Shown here: in pieces, positions 5,589 through 44,131 of the stretch
Layout: every line of letters starts with the position of its first letter
Numbering within the stretch: the stretch's first letter is position 1
Assembly (NCBI GenBank): GCA_018062825.1
Contig: JAGORL010000003.1
Coordinates: forward strand, 138,333 to 197,601
Source of the DNA: Patescibacteria group bacterium
Lineage (GTDB): Bacteria; Patescibacteriota; Patescibacteriia; UBA9934
Reading direction: 5' to 3'
DNA: 59,269 nucleotides
Notes under the pieces: generated by a model
Told to the model about the DNA's origin: nothing
The model's input: only the letters and a program-made list of their open reading frames with translations
The model's database searches: none
Translations under genes and position numbers: made by a program

Positions 5589-6320
5589 TTATTTGAGGTT
5601 TTTGATGAGGGTATCTTCTTCTTGCTTGGTGAGGTGGCGGAAATGACCTGATGGTAGTTTATCAAGGTGTATGTGCATGATGCGGATACGTTTTAAGGCA
5701 ACGACTTCATATCCAAGTTCTTCACACATGCGGCGAATTTGGCGATTACGACCTTCAACGATGGTGACGGAGAAGCTCGTTGGTGAGATGCGGTAGACGC
5801 GTGCTGGCAAAGTTCTGCGATCATCAAGCATGACGCCGTTACTCATGGCGTATAGAAAGTCTTGTGTGACCGGCTTATGGACTTCTACGACGTACTCTTT
5901 ATCATGTTCACCTTCTGCACGTAGGATTTTGTTGACGATGTCGCCGTCGTTTGTGAGGAGAATGAGTCCGGAAGAGGCGACGTCGAGTCGGCCGATATGG
6001 AAAATACGCTCAGGGTAATTGATGGCATCAATGATGTTATCTTGAGCCTTTGGATCACTGGTACAAATAATGCCTACCGGTTTGTTGTAGGCTAAATAGA
6101 CGCGCTTTGAGCGTTCGGCTACTGCTTTACCGTTTACAGCAACGTGATCGGTGCCGCTTATTTTTTGGCCAAGGACGGCGGTTGTGCCGTTTACCGTGAC
6201 GACACCGTCTTCAATCAGGCGATCGGCTCCCCGGCGTGAAGCGATGCCGTGATCAACGAGAAATTTATTGAGGCGGACATCGCCATTTGGGGTGGGCATA
6301 CGATAAGGAAATGGTTTCAT
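5589..6320 (-). CDS. Pseudouridine synthase, RsuA/RluB family, with S4 domain
   Basis: S4 RNA-binding region (RLNKFLVDHGIASRRGADRLIEDGVVTVNG) and catalytic GRLDVASSGLILLTNDG. Start chosen at the ATG at 6320; 6299 is an alternative. Confidence 0.8.
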   Translation of the reverse strand: MKPFPYRMPTPNGDVRLNKFLVDHGIASRRGADRLIEDGVVTVNGTTAVLGQKISGTDHVAVNGKAVAERSKRVYLAYNKPVGIICTSDPKAQDNIIDAINYPERIFHIGRLDVASSGLILLTNDGDIVNKILRAEGEHDKEYVVEVHKPVTQDFLYAMSNGVMLDDRRTLPARVYRISPTSFSVTIVEGRNRQIRRMCEELGYEVVALKRIRIMHIHLDKLPSGHFRHLTKQEEDTLIKNLK

Positions 6321-6433
6321 TCTACACGAAAGCCGCACTTTATTGTAGTTTTGGGCTTTTATCAAAAAAAGTCTCTTTGGACTTGCCAAAAAGACGTTTT
6401 TTGTATTATATTAGCCATGAAAGGAGGTGTGCT

Positions 6434-6667
6434 TTGGAGAGTGTGCGAAACCTTCGTGAAGAGATTTCTGAGTGCGCGGAGCGGCTCTCGGATCTGGGTC
6501 GGAACATGCAGGATGCCCTCCATGATTTCAATTCCAGGCTGCTCAGCCTGGCGGATCGGGTGGGCAGGCGCAAGGACATGGGTCAGGCGATTTCTCGTAG
6601 CGACTACGGGAAGGTGATGGACCTCCTCAACGAGATCGAGGAGGAACTGGGCGAGGTCGCGGCGTAG
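6434..6667 (+). CDS. Small helical/coiled-coil-like hypothetical protein (about 77 aa), G+C-rich
   Basis: Strong SD AAGGAGG (6421-6427) lies 6 nt before TTG 6434. An intrinsic terminator follows directly. GC3-rich codons contrast with the flanking genes. Confidence 0.55.
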   Translation: MESVRNLREEISECAERLSDLGRNMQDALHDFNSRLLSLADRVGRRKDMGQAISRSDYGKVMDLLNEIEEELGEVAA

Positions 6668-6684
6668 CGGTGCGGTCGTTTCGT

Positions 6685-6715
6685 ACGAGGGGCAGTTGCC
6701 CCTCGTTATTTTTTT
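6685..6715 (+). terminator. Intrinsic terminator of the small ORF
   Basis: ACGAGGGGCA-GT-TGCCCCTCGT hairpin followed by TATTTTTTT. Confidence 0.75.
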
Positions 6716-7695
6716 CGACGAATTACTTTTTGTGCAGCTTTGATGATCCAAGGCGCTGTTAACTTGTAGTGCTCGAGAAGTTCGTTTGGTTCGCCGGATT
6801 GACCAAAGACGTCTGCAAGGCCGATACGCTCCACGGGAACTGGGAAGGTGCTCGTGACGAGCTCCGCAATGGCGCCACCGAGGCCGGCGGCGGCTTGAGC
6901 TTCTTCTACGGTGACGATCGCTCCACATTCTTTCGCGGCTTTGACGATAACTTCTTCATCTAGCGGTTTGACGCTGACGGCGTTGATCACACGAGCTTCA
7001 ATGCCTTTTTTCTTTAATTCGTGTGCAGCCTTGAGTGCTTCGTAGACAAGTGGGCCGCAAGCAACGATGGCGACGTCTGTGCCATTATGAAAGACTTCAG
7101 CTGTACCAATTGCAAAGGGGGTTTTATCAGTGGTGAAGACGGGGGTTTTTTCACGGGCAAAGCGAATATAGACCGGGCCATCATGTTCAACCGCGGCGAT
7201 GGTGGCTTTTTCGGTTTCTTTAGCATCACATGGCACGAGCACTGTCATGTTTGGTAGAACGCGCATGAGAGCGATGTCTTCTACCATTTGGTGGGTTGCG
7301 CCATCGGGACCCACTGAAACGCCAGCGTGGGCGCCAGCGATTTTTACCGGCATTTCTTGCAAGCAGGCGGTAGTGCGAATCTGCTCCCAGTTCCTACCGG
7401 GAGAGAAGCAGGCGTAGCTTGCAATGAAGGGGATTTTTCCTTGAAGTGCCATGCCGGCAGCGATAGCGGCTAGTGCTTGCTCACTGACACCCATTTGAAT
7501 GAAGCGCTCTGGGAAGGCTTTTTTAAAGGCTTCTGTGCGTGTTGACTCGGTAAGATCGGCACAAAGCACAACAACGCGCTCATTTTTTGTGCCAGCAATA
7601 ACAAGACCGCTTCCAAAACCGTCACGGGTAGGAAGTTGGGGGATGGAGTCCATGAATATTTTGCCGGAAAGTTTGGCGGATTTTGGTACGCTCAT
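6706..7695 (-). CDS. Transketolase, C-terminal (pyrimidine-binding plus C-terminal domain) subunit
   Basis: 329 aa. Typical split-transketolase B chain (GFGSGLV..., MGVSEQ, GPDGATHQ). Confidence 0.9.
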   Translation of the reverse strand: MSVPKSAKLSGKIFMDSIPQLPTRDGFGSGLVIAGTKNERVVVLCADLTESTRTEAFKKAFPERFIQMGVSEQALAAIAAGMALQGKIPFIASYACFSPGRNWEQIRTTACLQEMPVKIAGAHAGVSVGPDGATHQMVEDIALMRVLPNMTVLVPCDAKETEKATIAAVEHDGPVYIRFAREKTPVFTTDKTPFAIGTAEVFHNGTDVAIVACGPLVYEALKAAHELKKKGIEARVINAVSVKPLDEEVIVKAAKECGAIVTVEEAQAAAGLGGAIAELVTSTFPVPVERIGLADVFGQSGEPNELLEHYKLTAPWIIKAAQKVIRRKK

Positions 7696-7696
7696 A

Positions 7697-8578
7697 TTAT
7701 TCGCCTTCAGAGGTGATTTTTCCGTTCAACGTACGCAGTTGACGCAGAGCGTCATGTAATTCATCTGGCTTGGGTGCTTTTCCGTGCCAGGCGGGTTCGA
7801 ATTCCATGAAATCCACACCTTTGCCGGGAATGGTGTGCGCAATGATCACTGTTGGTTTTTCCCAAATCGTCTTGGCGTGATCGCAGGCCTCTACGATTTC
7901 TCGCATGTTGTGACCGTCGATTTCAAGTACGGCAAAATTGAAGGCTTCGAATTTTTGGCGCAGTGGCTCCAAAGGCATGATGTCTTCAGTGTAGCCGTCG
8001 ATTTGGATGTTGTTGCGATCAATGATCCAAGTGAGGTTGTTGAGTTTATTTTTTCCAGCAAAGAGCGCGGCCTCCCAAGTGATGCCGGCTGCTAATTCAC
8101 CATCACTCATGACGCAGTAGGTGTGCCATGGTTTGTTATCCATTTTAGCAACGTAGGCGGCGCCAGCTGATTGTGGGGAGCCATCTCCAAGTGGACCGGA
8201 GGTGTTTTCTAGGCCTGGTAAGTGACGAAGCTCTGGGTGTCCTTGGAGGCGAGAGCCAAATTTTCTCAAGGTTTTGAGTTCTTCTTTAGGAAAGTAACCA
8301 GCGTGCGCCATTGTTACATAGCGCACCGGAACAATGTGGCCGTTACTTAGGAGGAGTCGATCGCGGTCTTCCCAGTGTGGGCGGCGTGGATCGTGATTTA
8401 AGACGTGAAAATACAGGGCAGTAAAAATATCAGCCATGCCGAGCGGTCCCGCTGAGTGGCCGCTTTTTACGTGTTCGAGCATGGTTAAGATATCGGCTCG
8501 TACTTTGTTGGCCAGTAGTTCGAGTCCGCGAATTTTTTCATCGGTGATGGCTGGATTATTTCTGCGAACTGTTGGCAT
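7697..8578 (-). CDS. Transketolase, N-terminal (thiamine-diphosphate-binding) subunit
   Basis: 293 aa with GHSAGPLGMADI and DGELAAG motifs. Its stop lies 1 nt before the start of the C-terminal subunit. Confidence 0.9.
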   Translation of the reverse strand: MPTVRRNNPAITDEKIRGLELLANKVRADILTMLEHVKSGHSAGPLGMADIFTALYFHVLNHDPRRPHWEDRDRLLLSNGHIVPVRYVTMAHAGYFPKEELKTLRKFGSRLQGHPELRHLPGLENTSGPLGDGSPQSAGAAYVAKMDNKPWHTYCVMSDGELAAGITWEAALFAGKNKLNNLTWIIDRNNIQIDGYTEDIMPLEPLRQKFEAFNFAVLEIDGHNMREIVEACDHAKTIWEKPTVIIAHTIPGKGVDFMEFEPAWHGKAPKPDELHDALRQLRTLNGKITSEGE

Positions 8579-8581
8579 AGG

Positions 8582-8974
8582 CTAGTGCTTGGCGTCTTCT
8601 AGGTTTACTTGTACGAGTGCAAAAATGGCAACAAAGAGTCCGGTGATAAAGTGTGACCAGGTGAATTCACGCATGGTGAGAAAGAGTGCGAAGGGTGCGG
8701 TTGCGATCCAGACACCGAGTCCGAACTGCATCCAGTGCATGGCGCGTAAACCGGCGGTTTTGATGTTTGGCTGTTCAAGCGTTACGACAAGGAGTGAAAG
8801 TACGCTAATGCTTAAGCCGATAATTAAGTCATCCCATCGTAGGAGTTGCATGAGCTCTTCATCTGTAGCGGTTGCAAGGGAAGGGATAAGGCGAGCAATG
8901 TCATCGCCGATAAATGGGACGAGAATCGTCCAGAAGGCGAGGATGAAGATGATCCAATGAAGGGCGCGAAGCAT
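8582..8974 (-). CDS. Hypothetical integral membrane protein (4 predicted helices)
   Basis: 130 aa, almost entirely hydrophobic segments. Lies 3 nt from the tkt gene. Confidence 0.55.
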   Translation of the reverse strand: MLRALHWIIFILAFWTILVPFIGDDIARLIPSLATATDEELMQLLRWDDLIIGLSISVLSLLVVTLEQPNIKTAGLRAMHWMQFGLGVWIATAPFALFLTMREFTWSHFITGLFVAIFALVQVNLEDAKH

Positions 8975-9033: not shown

Positions 9034-9831
9034 TTACTCGACGTAGATAGCGCCGGAGTTTGAACTGTCGTAACCGTCGTAGAAGGAATAGATACCCTCT
9101 TCTGTGAAGCGCTTTGTGAATGTTTCGCCGTTATTCATTGTTCCGCTACCCCATGAGAAGTCATCTGCGGTTACGGAGTGTGGGGCGGAAGTGTTGTTGA
9201 TGAACTTTACAACCTGACCTTCACTGATGGTGACATCAAGTGGCGAGAAGCCGTCTGTACCGATGTTGATCACCTTTGGAGCTACAAGGTTGCGATCGTT
9301 GTTGATGCTTGAAGCATTCTCCATGGCGGTTGTGACGTTGTAGTCGCCGGTGTCTTCAATGGCTTCACCGATGGTGTAGTTGGAGAAGAAGCCGTCAGCG
9401 ATGTCATCGATCTTCTTGTTCCAGTCTGCGCCGTACAAAGCGATAGCAACAGCCTCTGAGGTTACGTGACGAAGAGTGCTGTTCTCATCAATGGCGTATG
9501 TTTTTGGATCAGTGTTGATCTTTACCATGCGTACGCCTGGTTTGTAGGTAACGTTGCCGCCAATTTGAATCTTGGCAAGTTCTGCGTCTGAGATGGTCTT
9601 AACGGTATTGAAGTTGCTGTACCAGGTGAAGTACGCCTTGTCGTTTGGAAAAACGTAGCGGAAACCGTCGGCACCAACGTAGTACACGGCGGAGAATGAA
9701 GTACCGCGCACAAGATCACCTGAGTTAACGGTTGTAGCAGCCTGTGCTCCTTGTGCTAAGAAGGCGAGGCTTACTGCTGAAGCTGCAAAAGCAACGGCGG
9801 CAATAGAGATAGCAATGCGAGTACGCGTCAT
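9034..9831 (-). CDS. Secreted protein with C-terminal cupredoxin-like beta-sandwich domain
   Basis: Signal peptide (AISIAAVAFAASAVSLAFLAQGAQA). The C-terminus VKFINNTSAPHSVTADD...GIYSFYDGY...GAIYVE resembles plastocyanin/amicyanin-like folds. Confidence 0.55.
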   Translation of the reverse strand: MTRTRIAISIAAVAFAASAVSLAFLAQGAQAATTVNSGDLVRGTSFSAVYYVGADGFRYVFPNDKAYFTWYSNFNTVKTISDAELAKIQIGGNVTYKPGVRMVKINTDPKTYAIDENSTLRHVTSEAVAIALYGADWNKKIDDIADGFFSNYTIGEAIEDTGDYNVTTAMENASSINNDRNLVAPKVINIGTDGFSPLDVTISEGQVVKFINNTSAPHSVTADDFSWGSGTMNNGETFTKRFTEEGIYSFYDGYDSSNSGAIYVE

Positions 9832-9977
9832 AGACTATTTTATGAATTAGTTCAGCACTGACAATAGCACATTTTTGTCTTTTGCAAATGGGGAAATGTG
9901 GATTAGGGAGATTTTAGTATTAAAGAGTAAAGATTAAAGTTAAAAGGGGAGAATAGATAATAGTAGCGTGAAGTATG

Positions 9978-14183: not shown

Positions 14184-14195
14184 GGAATAGGGAAT

Positions 14196-14250
14196 AGGCC
14201 CACTTCGTCCGGCAGAGCCGGACTACGTTGGGGCTGTAAGTAGGGAGTAG
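14196..14250 (+). repeat. Dispersed intergenic repeat, copy A (GGCCCACTTCGTCCGG-loop-CCGGACTACGTTGGGGCT..TAGGGAGTAG)
   Basis: Near-identical to 15876-15929, with a degenerate copy at 33102-33153. Contains a 6 bp GTCCGG/CCGGAC hairpin. Confidence 0.8.
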
Positions 14251-14724: not shown

Positions 14725-14977
14725 ATGCGTGAAGTATACAGGGAGTGGGCGGTAGTACGTAGGGAGTAGGTGATGTGCATGAAAATAAATCGCCCTCCCG
14801 AGAGTGGGAGGACGACGGGCCGCGGCAGGCACGCTTGTTCTTGACCTTGGTGCGGTCTTGGAAGCGGCCGGTGTGGCGATTCACGATGTTGTCGCGCGTG
14901 CTCTGCTTGGGAGCACGAACGACAATCTTGTTCGGGTCGCGCTTTGGGGGCGCGACGGGTTGAGATTTCTGTTTCAA
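14666..14977 (-). CDS. Small Lys/Arg-rich ORF (TTG start, strong SD) with an intrinsic terminator inside the frame
   Basis: AGGAGG (14989-14984), 6 nt, TTG 14977. Translation MKQKSQPVAPPKRDPNKIVVRAPKQSTRDNIVNRHTGRFQDRTKVKNKRA... The first in-frame stop is at 14666, inside the next gene, and the G+C-rich character ends near 14800. Confidence 0.4.
   Translation of the reverse strand: MKQKSQPVAPPKRDPNKIVVRAPKQSTRDNIVNRHTGRFQDRTKVKNKRACRGPSSSHSREGDLFSCTSPTPYVLPPTPCILHAYAPTYDSSRHPRIRKIDVR
14781..14811 (-). terminator. Intrinsic terminator located within the small basic ORF
   Basis: The minus strand reads CCTCCC-ACTCTC-GGGAGG then GCGATTTATTTTC. Confidence 0.6.
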
Positions 14978-15069
14978 GAGACGCCTCCTGGAAAGATTCT
15001 ATCAGAGATTTGATAGTGTCTTTATGGGAGGCCTGACCGAGTGCTTGCGCAATCGGTCAGGCGAGGCGG

Positions 15070-15657
15070 CTAGCTCAGCTGGAGCTTCACCGCGAGCGAG
15101 TTGATCAGGCGGACCTTGTCGTCGTCGATCACCTCGCCGGCGAGCATCTTCTCGATGTCGGGGGAGAGCTCGGCGGTCTGGCGCGGCGTGATCGGACCGG
15201 GGTACCAGGTCCAGAGCATGCCGTCCTCTTTGCCGACGATCACCCAGATGTCGCTCGTCTTCTCGAGCTCGCCCTGCCACGGCATCACGAGCTCGGGCCC
15301 GTGCGCACCGTCCACGAGACGCACGAGCTTGCGCTCGTTGTCCGTGAGATCGCCGTACAGCTTGACCCCGGTGCGGCCGATGAGGCCGGTGGGGAGCTTG
15401 ACGTGGAAGTAGCGGGCCTTGAAGAAGAAGGCGGTGGGTGGGAGATCGGTCTCGAACTTCTCTTCGAACTCCAGCGTCTCCGTGAGGAGCGCGACGGTGT
15501 CGTCGAGGGTCGAGATGTTCTCCACGTAGCTGCCGCGGTTTCCCGTGACGTCGTTGACGCGCACGAGGCCGTCCAGGTGCTTGGCCTCGGTCTTGCCGTC
15601 GGCGACGCTCTGCTTGAGGCTCTCGATCGCGGCGGACACGGTGGCGGTGGCGGTCAT
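15070..15657 (-). CDS. Hypothetical protein (195 aa), G+C-rich orphan
   Basis: Clean GC3-biased frame (MTATATVSAAIESLKQSVADGK...). The other five frames give Arg/Gly/Pro-rich shadow ORFs. No family recognised. Confidence 0.65.
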   Translation of the reverse strand: MTATATVSAAIESLKQSVADGKTEAKHLDGLVRVNDVTGNRGSYVENISTLDDTVALLTETLEFEEKFETDLPPTAFFFKARYFHVKLPTGLIGRTGVKLYGDLTDNERKLVRLVDGAHGPELVMPWQGELEKTSDIWVIVGKEDGMLWTWYPGPITPRQTAELSPDIEKMLAGEVIDDDKVRLINSLAVKLQLS

Positions 15658-15790
15658 GTGATGAACTCTGCGGTGAATGTCGCACGCTGGCGACCGGTTA
15701 AGGAACGAGTGATTCGCACCTCGCAGATGAGAAGTGATTCTCAGCTATGAGGTGCCCTGCATGACTGTTCATGCAACAACTTAACGATCT

Positions 15791-15819
15791 AGTATAGCAG
15801 AAATTTTGGTTTTTGTCAA
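15791..15819 (-). promoter_or_regulatory. Near-consensus promoter TTGACA-17-(TGC)TATACT
   Basis: The minus strand reads TTGACA (15819-15814), a 17 nt spacer ending in TGC, then TATACT (15796-15791). It drives a roughly 130 nt hairpin-containing leader to the ATG at 15657. Confidence 0.7.
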
Positions 15820-15875
15820 TGATTTTTGATGATTATTTGGCTAATATTAGTGTATAAAAATGGGGGTGGGGTATA

Positions 15876-15929
15876 GGTCCACTTCGTCCGGTAGGTCCGG
15901 ACTACGTTGGGGCTATAGGTAGGGAGTAG
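15876..15929 (+). repeat. Dispersed intergenic repeat, copy B
   Basis: GGTCCACTTCGTCCGGTAGGTCCGGACTACGTTGGGGCTATAGGTAGGGAGTAG; compare copy A. Confidence 0.8.
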
Positions 15930-15930
15930 G

Positions 15931-16626
15931 GGGTGGTCCCTCGATGCTGGTGAATGATCATCGGCATTGAGGGACCCTCGAGCGCGAACACTCGAGGTGA
16001 GAAGGTTGACATACACCCCACGCGGCCGTGGGGACGGTATGTCAGCGTCCGGAAACCTCCGGTAGTTGCTCTGCATGAGCGCGTCGCTGTGTGACCGTAG
16101 TCTTGCCCGTTTTTCGCCTTGATGCGCCGATTGGTCGCGCACGGCACCCCACTTGTGTGGGTAAGGGACTAGCTTAGATTGCTGTTGGGCTAAGCACCCG
16201 CAAGGACTCGGAGTTTAAGGGGGCTACCTTCCAATGTACTCACCCCACTCCACGCCGTCGCGTGGGTTCTCCTTCCTGTCTTGCTCGGGGTATGCCTCCC
16301 CTTTACCCTTTGTCTTTCGACATTGAGATAGACCTGAGCGTGGCCGAACTCTGAGAATCGCCTATGGTTACCCATACTCGACTCAGTGGAGTGCTCAACG
16401 TGCGGCGTTGAGCGAGAGGTGTGCAAACGACTCTGAATCTTCAATAAGCACGGTATTGAAGATTCAGAGCGTCCCTCAATGCATTCTCCGGAAGCATTGA
16501 GCGTGCGTGAACGCCTTGCCTTACCGTCCTCCTGTTGCGGTCCTTATGATGCCCGGTGGGCTTCATGAAAGATGATCGCAAGCCGGATAGGTAACGCGTT
16601 GTCATGCGGCACTGACGCCAACTTGA
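15931..16626 (-). ncRNA. Candidate large structured RNA (unclassified), about 700 nt
   Basis: No credible ORF. There is a dense series of stable hairpins: 15935-15976 (13 bp), 15977-15996, 16007-16044, 16394-16412, 16431-16469 (16 bp perfect) and 16475-16501. A good minus-strand promoter sits at 16633-16661. The strand call rests on that promoter alone. Confidence 0.45.
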
Positions 16627-16632
16627 CGGAGT

Positions 16633-16661
16633 ATCGTAGCACGGCCAGTTGCAATAATCAA
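16633..16661 (-). promoter_or_regulatory. Promoter TTGATT-17-(TGC)TACGAT reading into the ORF-less segment
   Basis: The minus strand reads TTGATT (16661-16656), a 17 nt spacer ending in TGC, then TACGAT (16638-16633). Confidence 0.55.
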
Positions 16662-16743
16662 TGTTTTTACCCTTGCAAAATGTACTTTTTTACACAAATC
16701 TCAGAAAATAGGCATTGTAGGTGATATAATATGTCACAGATTT

Positions 16744-17520
16744 ATGACAAAAGTACTCATCTCACTTTTTGAACAGCTTGGTTTGCGGGCTGAGCATGCG
16801 GAAATTTACGAGATACTTTTAAAACAAGGCCCAGCGGCGGCGGGAATGATTGCTAAGAAGAGCCGTCATCAGCGTACTTATGTTTACAAGCTTCTTGATG
16901 AGCTTGTTGATCATGGCGCTTGCGAAAAGCGGGGCAAGGGCGCAAGATTTGTATTTGCTCCACAGGCGCCGACGGTTTTAAAAGATAAAGCTGAAGAATT
17001 GCTTCGTCAGCGAATTGATGATTTAGCCTCGGTCAAGGACGAAATTCCAAAATTGCAGGTATTTTATGAACACGGATCTGAGAAGCCGGTTGTTCGCTAT
17101 TTTCAAGGTGTTGAGGGGGTGCGGTCTATTTATGACGAGCATCTCCAATTGAAGAATCGTAGTCATTTTTTCTTCAGACCTCAGAAGTCGGATGTCTATA
17201 ATGTGGTTTTTGGTCCGTGGTTTAAGGATTTTTTGAAAAGACAGCGTGAGGCAAATATTCGGGTGTATGGCATTACGCCGGAAGACGGGGTAGTGCATGT
17301 AGATGATGAGAAACGTAACTTTCATCGTACTCTGGTGCGAGCTGATGACTATACGGTGCCGGTTGAGATCGCTTCTTATGGCAACACGGTGACAATTATT
17401 TCGTTTGGTAAGGAGATTTTTGGGCTTGCGATCGATCATGCACCCATTGCCCAAGCTATTAAGGAGATCTTCTTGCTTGCTAAAAGAGGAGCGGATACGA
17501 TTCACGTGCCTAAGAAATAG
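16744..17520 (+). CDS. TrmB-family winged-helix transcriptional regulator-like protein
   Basis: N-terminal wHTH (LGLRAEHAEIYEILLKQGPAAAGMIAKKSRHQRTYVYKLLDELVDHG). An extended -10 TGATATAAT lies at 16722-16730. Confidence 0.65.
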   Translation: MTKVLISLFEQLGLRAEHAEIYEILLKQGPAAAGMIAKKSRHQRTYVYKLLDELVDHGACEKRGKGARFVFAPQAPTVLKDKAEELLRQRIDDLASVKDEIPKLQVFYEHGSEKPVVRYFQGVEGVRSIYDEHLQLKNRSHFFFRPQKSDVYNVVFGPWFKDFLKRQREANIRVYGITPEDGVVHVDDEKRNFHRTLVRADDYTVPVEIASYGNTVTIISFGKEIFGLAIDHAPIAQAIKEIFLLAKRGADTIHVPKK

Positions 17521-17523
17521 CCT

Positions 17524-18378
17524 ATGTTGTCTGACGCTACTGAGTTTGTTGTTGTTTGCGCTCGTAACGATGAAGAATCGCTGCAAATCATTAAAATTAC
17601 CGAAGCTTTTAAGATACCTTGTTTCGTTTCTTTGCAGCCGCACGGGGCGCGTCTTGAAAAAGAACCAGATTTTTTACAACGTCTTGCGGATGATTATTCA
17701 CATGCAAAGCGATTGGTGGTTATTGAAATGCCCGGCGTTGAGATGGAGGCACGTTTAGTGGAGCTTGGTTATGAGGTTTCCATTATTGATCATCACCGAT
17801 ATCCGGGGCTTGATCGAATGAAGCAGGAAAGTTCGCTGGAGCAGTTTTTGTCTTTTTTTGCGATTGAGAACGTTGATCTTGAACGACATGGCTTTGATCC
17901 ACTCCTTGTGAGGTCAGTTGGCGTGATCGATCGAGGATTTTTTTGGGAATTAGCAAAGGAAGGGTTTTCTGAAGAGGATCGGCGTAAGGCGATTGCGTAC
18001 TATTTGGCGCTTCGTGATGAGTTGGCGCTTTTTAATCCGGAGGCTGCAGATGAAGCGCGACGTATTTTTGAAGCACGGGAAGAGCGTGATGGCATTTTGA
18101 TTTTTCAGGGAGCGCAGGCGCGTTTTCGGATTCGTGAAGAGCTATCGTTCCTTCTTGCTGAGCATTATCCTGATCAAGAACCGACTTCCATTATCTTTGA
18201 GCGAGATGGGAAGGTGAGTGTGCAAAATACGTTATTTGCCAATACATTATCTGAACGTTTTGGTGGTTATCAGTTTGGAAAAGGGTTGTGTTGGGGGAAA
18301 ATGCTTGAGGAGCCGACAAGTGGCAGAGATACTCTGCCAACACTTTTTGAGCTTTTAGAGATTATTTCGTCAGTATGA
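17524..18378 (+). CDS. Hypothetical protein (284 aa) containing an IIDHH motif
   Basis: Tightly coupled in the operon. SIIDHHRYPG resembles DHH motif III, but the other DHH motifs were not seen. Confidence 0.5.
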   Translation: MLSDATEFVVVCARNDEESLQIIKITEAFKIPCFVSLQPHGARLEKEPDFLQRLADDYSHAKRLVVIEMPGVEMEARLVELGYEVSIIDHHRYPGLDRMKQESSLEQFLSFFAIENVDLERHGFDPLLVRSVGVIDRGFFWELAKEGFSEEDRRKAIAYYLALRDELALFNPEAADEARRIFEAREERDGILIFQGAQARFRIREELSFLLAEHYPDQEPTSIIFERDGKVSVQNTLFANTLSERFGGYQFGKGLCWGKMLEEPTSGRDTLPTLFELLEIISSV

Positions 18379-19127
18379 GCTTTGATTTACCGGCGCTTTT
18401 GCAGTCGCTTGGTTTGTCGGAGCTCGAATCGCGTTTGTATTTACTGGCGGTGCGACTTGGGCCGAGTTCGGCGAGTGTTTTAGCGCGTGAACTTGGTGTT
18501 TCGCGATCGGCGATTTATGAGGCGGCTGGTTTTTTGAAGGCTAAGCGTCTCATGACGCCGATTATTGAGGGCAAGGTAACGGTTTTTGCAGCTGAAGAAC
18601 CTGATCGCCTTCATGGTCACTTTTCTGTTGACTTTGAACGATATAAGAGTGAGTTTGATGCTTTTTGCCGAGTGTTGCCGCAATTGCGTGTTCTTTATGG
18701 CTCTGGTCCAAAGCCGCGAGTACGTTATTTTTCTGGCCAAGAGGGCATGAAGGCGCTTTTTGATGATGTTGAGTACGTCGCGCCAACTGAGCTGCGTGAA
18801 TTTGTGGATCTTGAGAGCATGCGTGACAATATTCCGCGAGAGATCATGCTTGAGGCTCGCAAAGGAGTTAATTACGATCGAACAAAGGTGCGTATGTTGT
18901 GGCGAGAGCCGGTTGATATGGGCATTAAGCCTCGCGTGAATGTTGAGCAAAAGAAATTATCTTCTGATTTTCCAAGATTTTTTGGTAATGTTTGGATTTA
19001 TGCAAACCGAGTTGTTATGCTCAATATGCGTAATGGCTTTGAGGTTGTGATGATCGATCATCAGATTATTGCTGATACGATGACGCTCATGTTTGATTTA
19101 GCATGGAAGTCGGCTGATGAGGCGTAA
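18375..19127 (+). CDS. TrmB-family winged-helix regulator-like protein (paralog of 16744..17520)
   Basis: LGLSELESRLYLLAVRLGPSSASVLARELGVSRSAIYEAAGFLKAKRL. Shares VRYF.G.EG with the first paralog. ATGA start/stop overlap with the upstream gene. Confidence 0.65.
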   Translation: MSFDLPALLQSLGLSELESRLYLLAVRLGPSSASVLARELGVSRSAIYEAAGFLKAKRLMTPIIEGKVTVFAAEEPDRLHGHFSVDFERYKSEFDAFCRVLPQLRVLYGSGPKPRVRYFSGQEGMKALFDDVEYVAPTELREFVDLESMRDNIPREIMLEARKGVNYDRTKVRMLWREPVDMGIKPRVNVEQKKLSSDFPRFFGNVWIYANRVVMLNMRNGFEVVMIDHQIIADTMTLMFDLAWKSADEA

Positions 19128-31810: not shown

Positions 31811-31841
31811 AAATGAAAAACCCCGTAGAAACGGGGTTTTT
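31811..31841 (-). terminator. Intrinsic terminator of rnpB
   Basis: The minus strand reads AAAAACCCCGT-TTCT-ACGGGGTTTTTC. Confidence 0.8.
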
Positions 31842-31843
31842 CA

Positions 31844-32361
31844 GCAGGCGGTGCCGATAAGCCGAATTTTGTCTCACTTCTTATTGCGACGCAATGAGAA
31901 GTCAGGACGACCATCTCTCTTGTTCTTGTATTGCTACAAGACTTTAGCGAGCGACCGAATCTTGCTCTTGCACCAAAACGGGTTTGCCGCCACTGCATGT
32001 CACCATGCAGGGAGTGTGGTTGCACGCTAGTTACCTAGCGCACCTTCCGCACACGTTTCACTTTTCTTCACCTTGCTTACGCGAGGGTGAATAGTCTGTC
32101 TCTGTTGCGTACTACGTTACCGTTTCCAGTAGGCAGTACCCCGAAAATTCTTTCGTTTTCTCGAGACTTTCCCTAGGTTTGCCTCGAAAGTGAGGGATAG
32201 CTGCGTGCAGCCAATCCAATCCCTCACCACCGAAGGTATGCCTGGTCGCCGTTAGCGACGTTTTTTCTCATTGTGCCGTTGCCGACACACGGGTGTTCGG
32301 ACTTTCCTCACCTTTTCACCCTTTTTCAAGGATGGAGGGCGCGGTCGTCTGGCACGCCTGC
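31844..32361 (-). ncRNA. rnpB: RNase P RNA (bacterial type), unusually long at about 518 nt
   Basis: The minus strand contains GAGGAAAGTCCGAACAC (P4 5' strand) and GACAAAATTCGGCTTATCGG (P4 3' strand, ACAGAA..CGGCTTA-like). P1 pairs GCAGGCGTGCC with GGCACCGCCTGC. The -10 TGCTAATAT sits exactly 7 nt upstream of the 5' G. Confidence 0.85.
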
Positions 32362-32368
32362 GGGTTTT

Positions 32369-32400
32369 ATATTAGCAGAAAAAGAGGGGAAAGTAAAGAC
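32369..32400 (-). promoter_or_regulatory. rnpB promoter (TTTACT-17-(TGC)TAATAT)
   Basis: TAATAT at 32374-32369 (minus), TGC at 32377-32375, and a -35-like TTTACT 17 nt upstream. Confidence 0.65.
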
Positions 32401-32532
32401 AAACGCCCTAGTCCGAAGACGAGGGCGTCGAGTGTCACCCAGCAGTCGCACGAGGGCGTTGCTGGCACGTATATTTTGGCCGGGCGGCCAATGTGGAGGT
32501 AGTGATGTAGGAACAGTCGACCGGGCGGTCGA

Positions 32533-33012
32533 CTAGCTGATGGCGGCGCCGATGAAGCGCGCGAGCGCCTCGGTGCTGATCTGGTTCGTGATCTGGTCCT
32601 GGAGCTCGATGAACGCGTTGTTCACCGAGTCGCGCTTCGCTTCGCTCGACACACAGTAGAACATCACGCTGCGAGCGCGACGCACGAGCTGGCTCGCTTC
32701 GCTTGCGGAGAGCGTGTCGTGATTCGGGCACTCCTCGGGGTAGCAGAGGCGCGTGGCCTCGACGAGCATCTTGCCCTTCGGCAGGGCGTCGATGCCGTTG
32801 CGCTTCAGCGAGTCCGTGAGAACCTGGAACCGATCACGGTCCGCCTGACTGGTCAGGTTGTTGGCCGGGCTGTTCTTCTTGAACGCTTCCTGGGACTTGC
32901 GCGCGCGCTCCTGCTCTGCGAAGAGCATGGGCGGTTGCGACTTGCTCGTGCGGGCCGGGCGGCGTTCACGAGGCACGGGGGTGGCGGTGGGGGTGACAGA
33001 ACGGAGTTCCAA
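32533..33012 (-). CDS. Hypothetical protein (159 aa), G+C-rich orphan with basic disordered N-terminus
   Basis: TTG start with GAGGT 5 nt upstream and a GC3-biased frame. Promoter TTGCTA-16-(TGC)TATACT at 33061-33088. Confidence 0.55.
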   Translation of the reverse strand: MELRSVTPTATPVPRERRPARTSKSQPPMLFAEQERARKSQEAFKKNSPANNLTSQADRDRFQVLTDSLKRNGIDALPKGKMLVEATRLCYPEECPNHDTLSASEASQLVRRARSVMFYCVSSEAKRDSVNNAFIELQDQITNQISTEALARFIGAAIS

Positions 33013-33060
33013 GGTTGACCTCTGATTGGACGTGACGCACCCGGGAGTGGATGCGTACGA

Positions 33061-33088
33061 AGTATAGCAGAATGGCTTAAATTAGCAA
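33061..33088 (-). promoter_or_regulatory. Promoter TTGCTA-16-(TGC)TATACT
   Basis: The minus strand has TTGCTA (33088-33083) and TATACT (33066-33061). Confidence 0.6.
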
Positions 33089-33101
33089 GAAAAGGGGTTA
33101 G

Positions 33102-33153
33102 GGCCCACTTCATCCTAGCGGACTACGTTAGGACTGGAAAGTAGGAAGTAGGG
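33102..33153 (+). repeat. Dispersed intergenic repeat, degenerate copy C
   Basis: GGCCCACTTCATCCTAGCGGACTACGTTAGGACTGGAAAGTAGGAAGTAGGG aligns with copies A and B. Confidence 0.65.
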
Positions 33154-33196
33154 TGAAAAGAAGACCGCCCCAGTTCCGTGAGAGGAATGGGGCGGT
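33153..33196 (-). terminator. Intrinsic terminator after 33225..33884
   Basis: The minus strand reads ACCGCCCCA-loop-TGGGGCGGT then CTTCTTTTC. Confidence 0.65.
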
Positions 33197-33224
33197 GCGG
33201 GTGGTGCTGTCTTGAGGACGCTGT

Positions 33225-33884
33225 CTACTTGGCGGAGGCGACCATCTCCGCCGGTTCCGGCGAGAGGAAGTCCTGCCGGCGGGCGGCGAGCTCCTTCTCG
33301 CGGCTCGAGCGGGCGTTCACGCCGCAGAAGCAGTCGGCGAAGAGGAGGATGTCGCCGTCCTGGAGGTGGCGCTGCAGCATGACATCGTCGCTCGAGAGCC
33401 GGACGAGGTCACCGCGGATCAGGGTCTGGGTGATCTGCTCGACGACCGCGAGGGTCATGGCCTTGTTGATCGAGGTGGCGGTGCAGAACTTGGCCCACTG
33501 AGTGCGCCAAGCGTTGTGCGCCTTGAGCTTCTCGCCATCCATGCGGACGGCGCGCTCGGTGGCACCGATGATGTCGCGGATGCGCGAGTCCAGGAAGAGC
33601 TCGGGCGAGTTCTCGATCACGCACTTGATGGTGATCATGGCGCAGATGGCGGGGTGAGGCCGCATGACGTGCGCGACGATCGCGTTCTTCGCGGCGTCGA
33701 AGCCGCGGGCCACGCGCTTCTTGACGGTGGAGGTGCGGACCCGGGTGGTGACCTGGGTCGTCTCCGGTGCCGGGCGGCGCTCGGAGGGGGTGCGGCTCGG
33801 GCCGCGGTGGCCGTGCGGGAAGGAGCGGGCGTGGGCGGCGTGGTGCGATGCAGTCTGCAAGGGACTCTCCTTGTTGAGTTTCAC
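33225..33884 (-). CDS. Hypothetical protein (about 211-219 aa), G+C-rich orphan with basic His/Arg/Pro-rich N-terminus
   Basis: Very strong GC3 bias in this frame only. The likely true start is TTG 33860, preceded by AAGGAG. The -10 (TGC)TAATGT lies at 33913-33921. Confidence 0.6.
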   Translation of the reverse strand: MKLNKESPLQTASHHAAHARSFPHGHRGPSRTPSERRPAPETTQVTTRVRTSTVKKRVARGFDAAKNAIVAHVMRPHPAICAMITIKCVIENSPELFLDSRIRDIIGATERAVRMDGEKLKAHNAWRTQWAKFCTATSINKAMTLAVVEQITQTLIRGDLVRLSSDDVMLQRHLQDGDILLFADCFCGVNARSSREKELAARRQDFLSPEPAEMVASAK

Positions 33885-33928
33885 GCTTCACCAACCACGG
33901 TAAAGCTCGCGAACATTAGCAGAATATT

Positions 33929-33965
33929 AAAAAAAGAGCAACTCGTGCCGGCGTGGCACGAGTTG
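33929..33965 (-). terminator. Intrinsic terminator after 33971..34249
   Basis: The minus strand reads CAACTCGTGCC-loop-GGCACGAGTTG then CTCTTTTTTT. Confidence 0.75.
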
Positions 33966-33970
33966 GAGCC

Positions 33971-34249
33971 CTATTCGGGGGCGACGGGGGACGATTCAGC
34001 GATCGACCCGAGAGTGGCGCACAGTAGGTAAGCGCCTACGACGCTGAAGCCGAGGATGTTCTGGGTGTTCAGGCTGGCGAGGTCGGCTTGGTGGCAGGCC
34101 AGAAGGATGATGAGTCCGATCGGTGCACCACCAAGTGAACCGAACGTGAAAGCCTTCATGATGGCCTTGTGAGGGACGGGCTGGTCTGCGTGCATTGCTT
34201 CTCGTTGGCGCAAGCGCCGCAAGAATGGATCCATCATGGACGTGATCAC
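33971..34249 (-). CDS. Small membrane protein (92 aa), G+C-rich
   Basis: Two hydrophobic helices (FGSLGGAPIGLIILLAC, ILGFSVVGAYLLCATLG). GAGGTGA SD upstream. Confidence 0.5.
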   Translation of the reverse strand: MITSMMDPFLRRLRQREAMHADQPVPHKAIMKAFTFGSLGGAPIGLIILLACHQADLASLNTQNILGFSVVGAYLLCATLGSIAESSPVAPE

Positions 34250-34263
34250 CTCGTTGTTGTGGG

Positions 34264-34299
34264 AATAAAAACAACCGGACTAGTATGCCCGGTTGTTTT
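34264..34299 (-). terminator. Intrinsic terminator of trpS
   Basis: The minus strand reads AACAACCGG-loop-CCGGTTGTT then TTTATT. Confidence 0.7.
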
Positions 34300-34310
34300 G
34301 TTTTGGTCAA

Positions 34311-43800: not shown

Positions 43801-43877
43801 GGGCGTGTAGCTCAGTCGGTTAGAGCTCCGAGCTTATACCTCGGTGGTCCTTGGTTCGAATCCAAGCACGCCTACCA
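43801..43877 (+). tRNA. tRNA-Ile (anticodon UAU), CCA encoded
   Basis: Manual cloverleaf: acceptor GGGCGTG/CACGCCT, D-arm GCTC/GAGC, anticodon stem CCGAG/CTCGG with loop CTTATAC, T-arm CTTGG-TTCGAAT-CCAAG. Confidence 0.85.
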
Positions 43878-43880
43878 CAC

Positions 43881-44006
43881 GAGAAACGCTTTAAAATTTT
43901 CCATGACTGTGTCGACGGCTTGCGCTCCGGCCTCAACGTACGTTTGTAGTACGTCTCGGTCGGTGCTCGCCGTCTCCTTGTCCTGAAAAATTTTAAAGCG
44001 TTTCTC
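43881..44006 (+). repeat. tRNA-linked hairpin-bracketed element, copy E1
   Basis: The outer 21 bp inverted repeat GAGAAACGCTTTAAAATTTTC / GAAAATTTTAAAGCGTTTCTC encloses a core with a central ACGTAC-GTTTGTA-GTACGT hairpin. Confidence 0.75.
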
Positions 44007-44010
44007 CGGT

Positions 44011-44131
44011 GAGATGTTCTTCATGACTGGCGGTGTCGTCGGCCTTGGGCTCGGACTCAACGTACATTTGTAGTACGTTTCGTCCTGTGCCAGGCCATCT
44101 CCTAGCCAGCGAAAATTATAGAACATTTCTC
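44011..44131 (+). repeat. tRNA-linked hairpin-bracketed element, copy E2 (tandem to E1)
   Basis: Outer inverted repeat GAGATGTTCT / AGAACATTTCTC. The core is about 85-90 percent identical by eye to the copy at 59155-59269. Confidence 0.75.

What the first reader, a model, noticed from the sequence alone, without database searches (positions are those of the whole stretch)
15931..16661. ORF-less, hairpin-dense ~700 nt G+C-rich segment with its own promoter: candidate novel large structured RNA
No frame between 15931 and 16626 gives a credible protein; there are only short low-complexity ORFs. The segment is packed with strong local helices:
- a 13 bp stem at 15935-15976
- CTCGAG/CTCGAG at 15977-15996
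- a two-tier stem at 16007-16044
- a 7 bp stem at 16394-16412
- a perfect 16 bp stem at 16431-16469
- an 8 bp stem at 16475-16501

The first and last helices reuse the same arm sequence (GTCCCTCAATGC / GCATTGAGGGAC). A good minus-strand promoter, TTGATT-17-(TGC)TACGAT at 16633-16661, points into the segment and matches the rnpB promoter style. The segment sits directly upstream of, and co-oriented with, a G+C-rich orphan gene pair.

I compared it by eye with tmRNA, SRP RNA, RNase P (found elsewhere in the window) and group II intron 5'/domain V signatures, and none fits. Size and architecture are in the range of the large bacterial ncRNA classes (OLE, GOLLD, ROOL, HEARO), but I cannot assign it to any of them.
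Basis: partly seen in the sequence, partly recalled or inferred. Interest (0 to 1): 0.78.

Follow-up and report, generated by a model that had tools for sequence, protein, structure and literature searches.

The report
Conserved 700-nt structured non-coding RNA candidate
A roughly 700-base stretch with no gene in an uncultured groundwater-type bacterium has kept its sequence and its hairpins through evolution, so it most likely makes a large folded RNA of a kind not yet catalogued, though only two related lineages are known to carry it.

Summary
Window 15930-16630 has no credible ORF and no codon periodicity. Every listed hairpin is present. It folds far better than shuffled sequence (z about -7, like the window's RNase P RNA). 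It matches none of the 4227 Rfam families.

The key new evidence is a sister-lineage contig (L036) covering 16143-16640:
- This stretch is 87% identical, with invariant blocks of 86 and 46 nt. Third codon positions of the flanking genes are only 54-57% identical.
- Substitutions show no period-3 pattern, and six separate indels of 1-2 nt are tolerated.
- Five to seven base pairs carry compensatory double changes, against about 1 expected (P<=0.0005).
- The minus-strand promoter hexamers are conserved while the spacer between them has changed.

The segment is therefore a selected, structured, probably minus-strand RNA element. It is read from a promoter divergent from a TrmB-family regulator gene, and it is the first element of a lineage-specific island of high-GC3 orphan genes.

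Two more distant lineages have the same layout, with equally structured non-coding segments of unrelated sequence.

Unresolved:
- whether it is a free-standing RNA or a structured leader
- the strand, where the evidence is mixed
- the 3' end
- the function

Known in only two lineages.

The parts
15930..16625 (-). Candidate structured non-coding RNA, about 695 nt. The 5' end near 16625 is inferred from the promoter. The 3' end is undefined; 15930 is where the 61-nt repeat begins.
   Evidence: No ORF or period-3 signal. z of about -7. No Rfam match. 16143-16632 is 87% identical in L036 against 54-57% at neutral codon positions. Compensatory changes.
16633..16661 (-). Sigma-70-type promoter TTGATT-17-(TGC)TACGAT reading into the segment.
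   Evidence: Sequence. In L036 both hexamers and the TG are kept, while 5 of 6 bases in the CGGCCA stretch of the spacer changed. Strong island promoters in L038 and L037 lie at a comparable distance from the TrmB operator.
16143..16228 (-). Invariant 86-nt core: 100% identical in the sister lineage and only weakly paired in the minus-strand models.
16534..16585 (-). Hypervariable hairpin: about 60% identical in sequence, with pairing kept by several double and wobble-mediated changes.
   Evidence: helix 5.
16429..16471 (-). 16-17-bp hairpin. One pair changed on both sides (U-A to A-U).
   Evidence: helix 8.
16354..16389 (-). Hairpin with a purine internal loop and a GNRA tetraloop on the minus strand (GUAA in the window, GAAA in L036). 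One compensatory pair (U-A to C-G).
   Evidence: helix 11.
16390..16416 (-). 8-bp hairpin GCUCAACG/CGUUGAGC. In L036 the closing pair is replaced (G-C to C-G) together with a 1-nt indel.
16471..16505 (-). Hairpin whose arms repeat those of the 15935-15976 hairpin. Stem invariant, loop variable.
15933..15978 (.). 19-position hairpin: 3 G.U pairs if read on the plus strand, 3 A.C mismatches on the minus strand. Its 3' arm is also complementary to 16467-16482 (16 nt, 94%).
   Evidence: No comparative data.
15976..15997 (-). 9-bp hairpin with a UUCG loop and a U.G wobble on the minus strand. On the plus strand the same position is a C.A mismatch.
16005..16046 (.). Two-tier hairpin (8 bp plus 7 bp).
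15869..15929 (.). 61-nt repeat, copy 2, between the segment and the next promoter. Copy 1 is at 14190-14250 and a degenerate copy is at 33096-33152.
15791..15819 (-). Separate strong promoter TTGACA-17-(TGC)TATACT for the 195-aa high-GC3 orphan gene (15070-15657, minus strand).
16732..16749 (.). Perfect palindrome TGTCA-N8-TGACA at the start of the divergent TrmB-family gene (16744-17520, plus strand). Putative operator.
   Evidence: Occurs once each in the window, L036, L037 and L038 at the TrmB start. Its only other match among the 42 fetched loci is L004, a Logan copy of this same window region. TrmB domain.

Best explanation
The segment encodes a structured non-coding RNA of about 700 nt, read on the minus strand from the promoter at 16661..16633.

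**Where it sits.** That promoter lies about 76 nt from the palindromic operator of a divergently transcribed TrmB-family regulator gene. The RNA is the first element of a lineage-specific insertion between the host genes AAA33 and p284. The insertion also carries high-GC3 orphan genes.

**How it works.** Selection acts on the RNA fold. Peripheral helices drift in sequence but keep pairing. An 86-nt core and the 5' 46 nt are frozen in sequence, so they are the likely sites of contact with a partner (a protein or another nucleic acid).

**Shown:**
- It is non-coding.
- It is unusually stable when folded.
- It is under purifying selection.
- It has compensatory pair changes.
- The promoter hexamers are conserved.
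- It is absent from known RNA families.

**Inferred:**
- Transcription, and which strand is read.
- That it is a discrete RNA rather than part of a longer transcript.
- Control by the TrmB-like protein.
- Any partner.
For: **Known families and coding.**
- No Rfam family at gathering score or at E<=10.
- No tRNA or tmRNA.
- No period-3 GC signal.
- No Pfam match on the ORF translations.

**Fold stability.** z is -7.4 / -7.8 and -6.5 in a separate run where RNase P RNA gives -6.3 and coding controls give +0.4 to -3.0.

**Sister lineage L036.**
- 16143-16632 is 87% identical, with invariant blocks. Third codon positions of the flanking genes are 54-57% identical.
- The 59 substitutions fall 23/21/15 by position mod 3, and there are six separate 1-2-nt indels.
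- A structure predicted from the window alone keeps 7 (plus strand) or 5 (minus strand) doubly changed pairs in L036, against 1.2 or 0.9 in 2000 permutations, P<=0.0005.
- Slid-partner controls give 0-2 such pairs against 5 observed.

**Promoter and minus-strand motifs.**
- The promoter hexamers are kept and the spacer has changed.
- Minus-strand-specific motifs: a GNRA loop kept as GUAA then GAAA with a compensated stem, and a UUCG loop with a U.G wobble.

**Same layout in more distant lineages.** L038 and L037 have the operator, then a strong minus-strand promoter 86-87 nt away, then structured non-coding segments and high-GC3 genes.
Against: - Only one other lineage carries a recognisable homolog, and it covers only 16143-16640. 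The left 213 nt, including the strongest hairpin, have no comparative support.
- With two sequences, covariation statistics are weak. In the tool's own shuffle control, 15 of 500 shuffles reach the observed value.
- Helices are symmetric, so the same evidence fits the plus strand.
- The 15935-15976 hairpin and the 16170-16192 hairpin each have three G.U pairs on the plus strand only. Summed hairpin energies do not separate the strands.
- No terminator is seen on either strand, so a discrete 3' end is not shown.
- The analogous segments in L037 and L038 share no sequence or k-mers with this one, unlike OLE, GOLLD or ROOL families.
- No homolog was found in 26 related Uhrbacteria loci, phage records, plasmid records, viral contigs or the one metagenome pattern scan.
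Confidence: 0.6

Rival explanations
1. It is not a free-standing RNA. It is the long structured 5' leader of one island transcript that starts at 16661..16633 and runs on into the 195-aa gene and the small ORF. It would act in cis, for example in stabilising, processing or attenuating the mRNA of the foreign high-GC genes.
For: - No terminator lies between the segment and the 195-aa gene, and the two are co-oriented.
- In L038, one strong minus-strand promoter next to the TrmB operator is followed by three structured non-coding segments of 600-970 nt interleaved with genes. No further minus-strand promoter was detected there.
- In L037 a gene comes first and the structured segment second.
Against: - The 195-aa gene has its own 11-of-12 promoter, 270 nt downstream of the segment.
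- No close homolog of the 195-aa protein exists in the database, although the RNA is conserved in the sister lineage. The best relative is 48% identical and sits in another context without this RNA.
- An 86-nt invariant block is more constraint than a stability element usually shows.
Confidence: 0.25
2. The functional RNA is the plus strand (15930 to 16630), not the minus strand.
For: - The 15935-15976 hairpin is 10 kcal/mol better on the plus strand, where it has 3 G.U pairs in place of 3 A.C mismatches.
- The 16170-16192 hairpin forms only on the plus strand.
- The closing pair of the 16-bp hairpin changes A-U to G.U on the plus strand.
- Plus-strand models keep 7 doubly changed pairs.
Against: - No plus-strand promoter is found upstream, and there is no terminator at 16630-16700.
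- A conserved promoter and the GNRA and UUCG loops are on the minus strand.
- Island promoters in L037 and L038 at the same position also read the minus strand.
Confidence: 0.12
3. It is a DNA-level element whose hairpins act in DNA rather than RNA. Candidates are a non-autonomous transposon (MITE, or an IS200/IS605-type element with hairpin ends) or a set of recombination sites.
For: - The first and last hairpins are direct copies of one hairpin.
- 16-nt inverted arms lie at 15964-15979 and 16467-16482.
- One stem is a perfect 16 bp.
- The segment lies in a variable insertion site between IleRS and p284, next to a 61-nt repeat.
Against: - It is single-copy in the 59-kb window.
- Homology with L036 runs straight through the supposed element end at 16482, with equal conservation on both sides.
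- Conservation is patchy (100% blocks beside 60% patches with compensated pairs), which is not the uniform identity of a recently moved element.
- No transposase or integrase is among the neighbours scanned.
Confidence: 0.05
4. It is a decayed protein-coding gene brought in with the high-GC island.
For: It lies beside foreign high-GC3 genes. A stop-free stretch of up to 117 codons exists.
Against: - No period-3 signal in composition or substitutions.
- 1-2-nt indels are tolerated while the sequence stays 87-100% identical and neutral sites are saturated.
- No Pfam match.
- Gene callers called nothing there.
- z of -6.5 to -7.8, against -2.3 to -3.0 for real high-GC genes.
Confidence: 0.02

Closest known systems
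Large 'ornate' bacterial non-coding RNAs of unknown function (OLE, GOLLD, ROOL, HEARO, raiA)
   Same: - Similar size range (about 600-800 nt).
- Higher G+C than the host genome.
- Many helices, with invariant stretches between them.
- No coding capacity.
- Location in or next to variable or mobile DNA.
- Fold stability like a known ribozyme gene.
   Different: - No covariance-model match to any Rfam family.
- Known in only two sister lineages, whereas those classes have hundreds to thousands of members.
- The analogous segments in more distant lineages have unrelated sequences.
- None of the protein partners named for those classes are nearby. From my own knowledge these are the Oap proteins for OLE and IscB for HEARO.
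Regulator gene transcribed divergently from its target (TrmB-family transcription factors)
   Same: A TrmB-domain gene starts at a perfect palindrome, and a promoter 76-87 nt away reads the other way into the island. This holds in three lineages.
   Different: Known TrmB targets are sugar and metabolic genes (my knowledge of the family). Here the first target would be a large non-coding RNA followed by orphan genes. Binding has not been tested.
Stem-loop TIGR arrays of TIGR-Tas systems (reported mainly in phages and CPR bacteria; bioRxiv 10.64898/2026.09.09.750476)
   Same: A run of hairpins with little sequence conservation, in a CPR genome.
   Different: There are no stem-loop units of the defining form (box C-9 nt-box D, a gap of at most 15 bp, box C-9 nt-box D, flanked by a stem) on either strand. 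No Nop-domain protein is among the neighbours. Hairpin loops here are 4-11 nt, not about 37 nt.

Membership tests
Any Rfam 15 family (including RNase P, tmRNA, SRP RNA, 6S, group I/II introns, OLE, GOLLD, ROOL, HEARO, raiA) | Covariance-model score at or above the family's gathering threshold | tested here: not met
   Nothing at gathering score in 15600-16800. The best hits at E<=10 are miRNA or lncRNA models at 15-23 bits, well under their thresholds. The same scan found the window's RNase P RNA and 6 tRNAs.
tmRNA | tRNA-like domain plus tag reading frame | tested here: not met
   ARAGORN finds no tmRNA in the window.
Group II intron | Domain V/VI consensus and an intron-encoded or nearby reverse transcriptase | tested here: not met
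   No Rfam intron model hit. The GNRA hairpin at 16354-16389 resembles domain V only loosely: a 6-bp lower stem, a symmetric 2x2 loop and an AGU triad. No RT is among the neighbours.
TIGR stem-loop array | Repeated units of stem, box C-9 nt-box D, loop, box C-9 nt-box D, stem; and an adjacent Nop-domain Tas gene | tested here: not met
   0 units on either strand, here and in the L037 and L038 segments. No Nop domain in neighbouring proteins.
MITE / IS200-IS605-derived element | Multiple copies, defined ends with presence/absence polymorphism, no selective constraint inside | tested here: not met
   Single copy in the window. Conservation continues across the putative end and is patchy with compensated pairs. 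The rest of the genome could not be searched.
Integron cassette / attC sites | Imperfect 57-141-nt palindromes with RYYYAAC...GTTRRRY cores, and an IntI integrase | tested here: inconclusive
   By eye, the 61-nt repeat has near-core sequences (CCCCAAC ... GTGGGC on the minus strand), but with a base missing. No integrase was seen among the proteins scanned. Most of the window's proteins were not scanned.
Protein-coding gene or pseudogene | Reading frame, period-3 composition or substitution pattern, protein homologs | tested here: not met
Structured RNA under selection (generic) | Sequence conserved above the neutral rate, with base pairs kept through changes on both sides | tested here: met
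   87% identity against 54-57% at neutral sites. 5-7 compensated pairs against about 1 expected. Based on two sequences only.

The most novel reading that the evidence does not exclude
This RNA would be the first recognised example of a broader, sequence-diverse class: structured RNAs of 600-1000 nt embedded in islands of high-GC3 genes in CPR bacteria. Each island would be guarded by a TrmB-type regulator with a TGTCA-N8-TGACA operator. The RNAs would work together with the island's proteins; in L038 these include a DEAH helicase and a MYG1-type exonuclease. The whole would be an RNA-centred accessory system of a kind not yet described.
Probability: 0.2. Interest if true: 0.85.

Novelty: new variant of a known kind. 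Interest (0 to 1): 0.62.

Why it matters
Large structured bacterial RNAs are rare. Each one found so far (RNase P, OLE, GOLLD, ROOL) has opened new biochemistry. CPR bacteria have tiny genomes and few known non-coding RNAs.

Here, about 700 nt of non-coding sequence is held nearly constant while neighbouring genes have saturated their silent sites. That implies a function worth its cost.

The link to a dedicated regulator and to foreign, very GC-rich orphan genes recurs in three lineages. It gives a concrete, testable locus type for asking how these episymbionts use acquired DNA and RNA.

Tried and rejected
**Known families**
- Rfam at permissive thresholds on the region and on L038: nothing.

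**Homolog searches that found nothing**
- blastn against phage and plasmid records: no match.
- blastn and nhmmer against 26 Uhrbacteria loci around IleRS: only noise.
- A covariance model of the 5' domain over 545 kb of fetched loci: only the window and L036.
- Pattern scans: the hairpin-arm pattern in viral contigs gave 4 chance hits. Three conserved 17-18-mers in viral contigs gave 0 hits. One conserved pattern in metagenome contigs gave 4 chance hits.
- TrmB peptide scans of genome and metagenome contigs found no relative.
- The last protein search, a chimeric query of the IleRS C-terminus plus AAA33 meant to recover the left half of the RNA in the sister lineage, returned only IleRS at 62% identity or less.

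**Ideas tested and dropped**
- Island inserted at the RNA's 3' end, with the 61-nt repeat as the att site. Weakened because AAA33, which lies inside the repeat-flanked piece, is an ancestral neighbour of p284 in relatives. The repeat's GTAGGGAGTAGG tail is also a common intergenic motif.
- TIGR array: rejected.
- Antisense pairing of the RNA (16233-16249) with the first codons of the TrmB mRNA. It is strong in the window (-33 kcal/mol) but not kept in L036 (-20, in a different register), so it is treated as coincidence.
- AlphaFold model of the 195-aa orphan: pLDDT 49, unusable, so no fold search was run.
- Sequence or k-mer similarity between this RNA and the structured segments of L037 and L038: none.
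- Strand assignment from hairpin energies: inconclusive.

Full report
**The observation**

The window comes from a Candidatus Uhrbacteria-like (Patescibacteria/CPR) genome. Its IleRS is 60-73% identical to IleRS in 26 GTDB MAGs, which are variously labelled Uhrbacteria, Patescibacteria or (apparently mislabelled) Gammaproteobacteria.

The segment at 15930-16630 contains only short ORFs with unconvincing translations. These translations have no credible Pfam match. The gene callers behind two independent Logan assemblies of the same locus called nothing there.

A GC frame plot shows no period-3 signal in the segment. The adjacent 195-aa gene (15070-15657, minus strand) has GC3 of about 0.95.

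The shared arm motif occurs exactly twice in the window, against none expected by chance.

Folding free energy is far below that of dinucleotide shuffles:
- z is -7.4 on the minus strand and -7.8 on the plus strand.
- In a separate run with controls, the segment gives -6.5 and the window's RNase P RNA -6.3. An IleRS coding stretch gives +0.4, and two high-GC genes give -2.3 and -3.0.
- In a scan of 394 windows, the three windows covering the segment fall among the 13 most structured, together with the tRNA and RNase P regions.

Local signal sits in 15800-16100 and 16300-16600.

**Known families**

cmscan against all 4227 Rfam families finds RNase P RNA and six tRNAs elsewhere in the window, and nothing in the segment. 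At E<=10 there are only chance miRNA or lncRNA hits far below threshold. ARAGORN finds no tmRNA. Phage and plasmid records have no similar DNA.

**Comparative evidence**

In 26 related MAG loci the gene order IleRS - p284 - (p250) - p392 is conserved. Three of these loci also have the AAA33 gene next to p284.

The window carries an extra 2.7 kb between AAA33 and p284. It holds a small ORF, the 195-aa orphan, the segment, and a TrmB-family paralog. None of the 26 loci contains anything similar to the segment.

The TrmB paralog has one close relative, P0005, at 88% amino-acid identity. It lies on a 2.76-kb Logan contig, L036. That contig starts inside the segment and aligns with window 16143-18400.

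| Region compared with L036 | Identity |
|---|---|
| Non-coding part, 16143-16632 | 87% |
| Third codon positions of TrmB, p284 and p250 | 54-57% |
| First and second codon positions | 82-97% |

Within the non-coding part, 16143-16228 and 16577-16622 are invariant. The segment is therefore constrained about as strongly as amino-acid-determining positions.

The 59 substitutions fall 23/21/15 over the three phases. Six separate indels of 1-2 nt are tolerated. This excludes a reading frame.

Base pairs are kept through changes on both sides:
- RNAalifold finds 7 such pairs on the plus strand and 5 on the minus strand.
- To avoid circularity, I folded the window sequence alone and asked how L036 treats those pairs. 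The counts were again 7 and 5 doubly changed pairs, against 1.2 and 0.9 in 2000 permutations of the substitutions (P<=0.0005). Fewer pairs were broken than expected (P = 0.013 and 0.0025).
- The pair-counting tool gives 5 such pairs against 0-2 when partners are slid by 1-3 columns. 15 of 500 shuffles reach the observed value, which is a weak control with two sequences.

The clearest cases are:
- the 16-bp hairpin (U-A to A-U);
- the 16354-16389 hairpin (U-A to C-G);
- the closing pair of 16392-16414;
- the hairpin at 16534-16585, which is only about 60% identical in sequence but keeps its stems.

**Strand and transcription**

Five of six bases in the CGGCCA stretch of the spacer differ. That is the pattern expected of a real promoter.

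It has the TGCTA-type -10 seen at rnpB and at the high-GC genes.

Two loop motifs typical of RNA exist only on the minus strand:
- a GNRA tetraloop that changes from GUAA to GAAA while its stem is compensated;
- a UUCG loop closing a 9-bp stem with a U.G wobble, which would be a C.A mismatch on the plus strand.

Against this:
- The 15935-15976 hairpin has three G.U pairs only on the plus strand.
- So does the hairpin at 16170-16192.
- Summed hairpin energies are equal for the two strands.

No plus-strand promoter and no terminator on either strand were found. I favour the minus strand but do not regard it as settled.

**Context**

The TrmB paralog starts at a perfect palindrome, TGTCA-N8-TGACA (16732-16749). 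The same palindrome occurs once at the start of each homolog in L036, L037 and L038. Its only other match among the 42 fetched loci is L004, a Logan copy of this same window region.

In L038 and L037 (TrmB 37-40% identical), a strong TTGACA-17 promoter lies 86-87 nt from the palindrome and reads the opposite way. In the window the corresponding distance is 76 nt.

Downstream of those promoters lie genes with GC3 of 0.7-0.93, in hosts of about 45% GC. Between them are non-periodic segments of 600-970 nt at 53-58% GC. Their fold z-scores are -5.8 to -7.8. These segments have no Rfam match. They share no sequence or k-mers with the window's segment.

So the layout recurs: regulator, divergent promoter, structured non-coding RNA-like segments and foreign-looking genes. 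The sequence does not recur. This is the main reason to keep open the reading that the segment is a structured part of an island transcript rather than a free RNA.

In the window, a separate strong promoter (15819..15791) and a 61-nt repeat lie between the segment and the 195-aa gene. No close homolog of that gene is known. Both points favour an independent RNA.

**Alternatives examined**

- A TIGR stem-loop array (bioRxiv 10.64898/2026.09.09.750476) is excluded: no unit of the defining form exists.
- A transposon-like element is unlikely.
- A pseudogene is excluded.
- Antisense pairing with the TrmB mRNA is not conserved.

**Verdict**

The segment is a real, selected, structured non-coding element, most likely an RNA of about 700 nt read from the minus strand. 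It belongs to no described family.

Its function is unknown. The best-supported mechanistic picture is a TrmB-controlled RNA whose invariant core contacts a partner and whose peripheral helices serve as scaffold.

The evidence rests on one sister lineage and on 70% of the segment's length. More homologs and transcript mapping are needed.

Noticed in passing
window 14190-14250, 15869-15929, 33096-33152: A 61-nt direct repeat (88.5% identical between the first two copies, with a degenerate third copy). Each copy lies beside high-GC3 genes, and each contains the hairpin TCCGG-N5-CCGGA. Its role is unknown: recombination site, processing site or plain intergenic repeat.
   Followed up: partly
window 14800-15700 and 32400-34300: Two islands of orphan genes with GC3 of 0.73-0.95 in a genome of about 47% GC. 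The genes are the 195-aa gene, a small basic ORF, and genes at 32533-33012, 33225-33884 and 33971-34249 (all minus strand). None has a Pfam, PHROG or PADLOC match, yet the 195-aa gene and the genes at 32533-33012 and 33225-33884 sit behind host-style promoters (TTCTGCTAWWNT, as at rnpB).
   Followed up: partly
window 16732-16749; L036 591-608; L037 5360-5377; L038 9948-9965: The perfect palindrome TGTCA-N8-TGACA sits at the start of each gene of this TrmB clade, and its only other match among the 42 fetched loci is L004, a Logan copy of this window region. It is a likely operator. A one-mismatch copy lies at 16600-16617, just inside the RNA.
   Followed up: partly
L038 1222-9870: An 8.6-kb high-GC island flanked by TrmB-type genes. 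It holds a DEAH-box helicase, a MYG1-type exonuclease and three strongly structured non-coding segments (6400-7368, 8257-8860, 9098-9870). Hairpin modules repeat at 5828-5879 and 8536-8587.
   Followed up: partly
window 31841-32360: The RNase P RNA match spans 520 nt for a 367-position model, so the gene carries about 150 nt of insertions.
   Followed up: no
window 263, 3986, 14180, 14240, 14759, 15919, 33141, 47217, 54607: GTAGGGAGTAGG-like motif found nine times (0.1 expected), always on the plus strand and mostly just after genes. Two of the copies are followed by near-identical terminators, AAAAAAGAGCACGC...GTGCTCTTTTT.
   Followed up: partly
window 43876-44100: Directly after tRNA-Ile(tat) there is a 32-nt inverted repeat (88% complementary) and two copies of a long hairpin of about 80 nt. 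This is the most negative fold z-score in the whole window (about -15).
   Followed up: no
window 14785-14977: The small high-GC ORF (TTG start at 14977, good GGAGG ribosome-binding site) has no stop before a terminator-like hairpin (CCTCCC-N6-GGGAGG followed by a T-rich tail, about 14785-14812). It runs on into the AAA33 gene region.
   Followed up: no
L001 2820-3223: A GIY-YIG-type ORF lies between two copies of TTCCGGGATCGTCTAAAGGCAG, which look like pieces of a tRNA gene. This suggests a homing endonuclease inserted in a tRNA gene. It is on the contig that carries the 48%-identical homolog of the 195-aa orphan.
   Followed up: no
window 16744-17520 and 18375-19127: Two TrmB-domain genes lie 850 nt apart. 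The first is lineage-specific and came in with the insertion. The second (p250) is in many, but not all, of the related genomes.
   Followed up: partly
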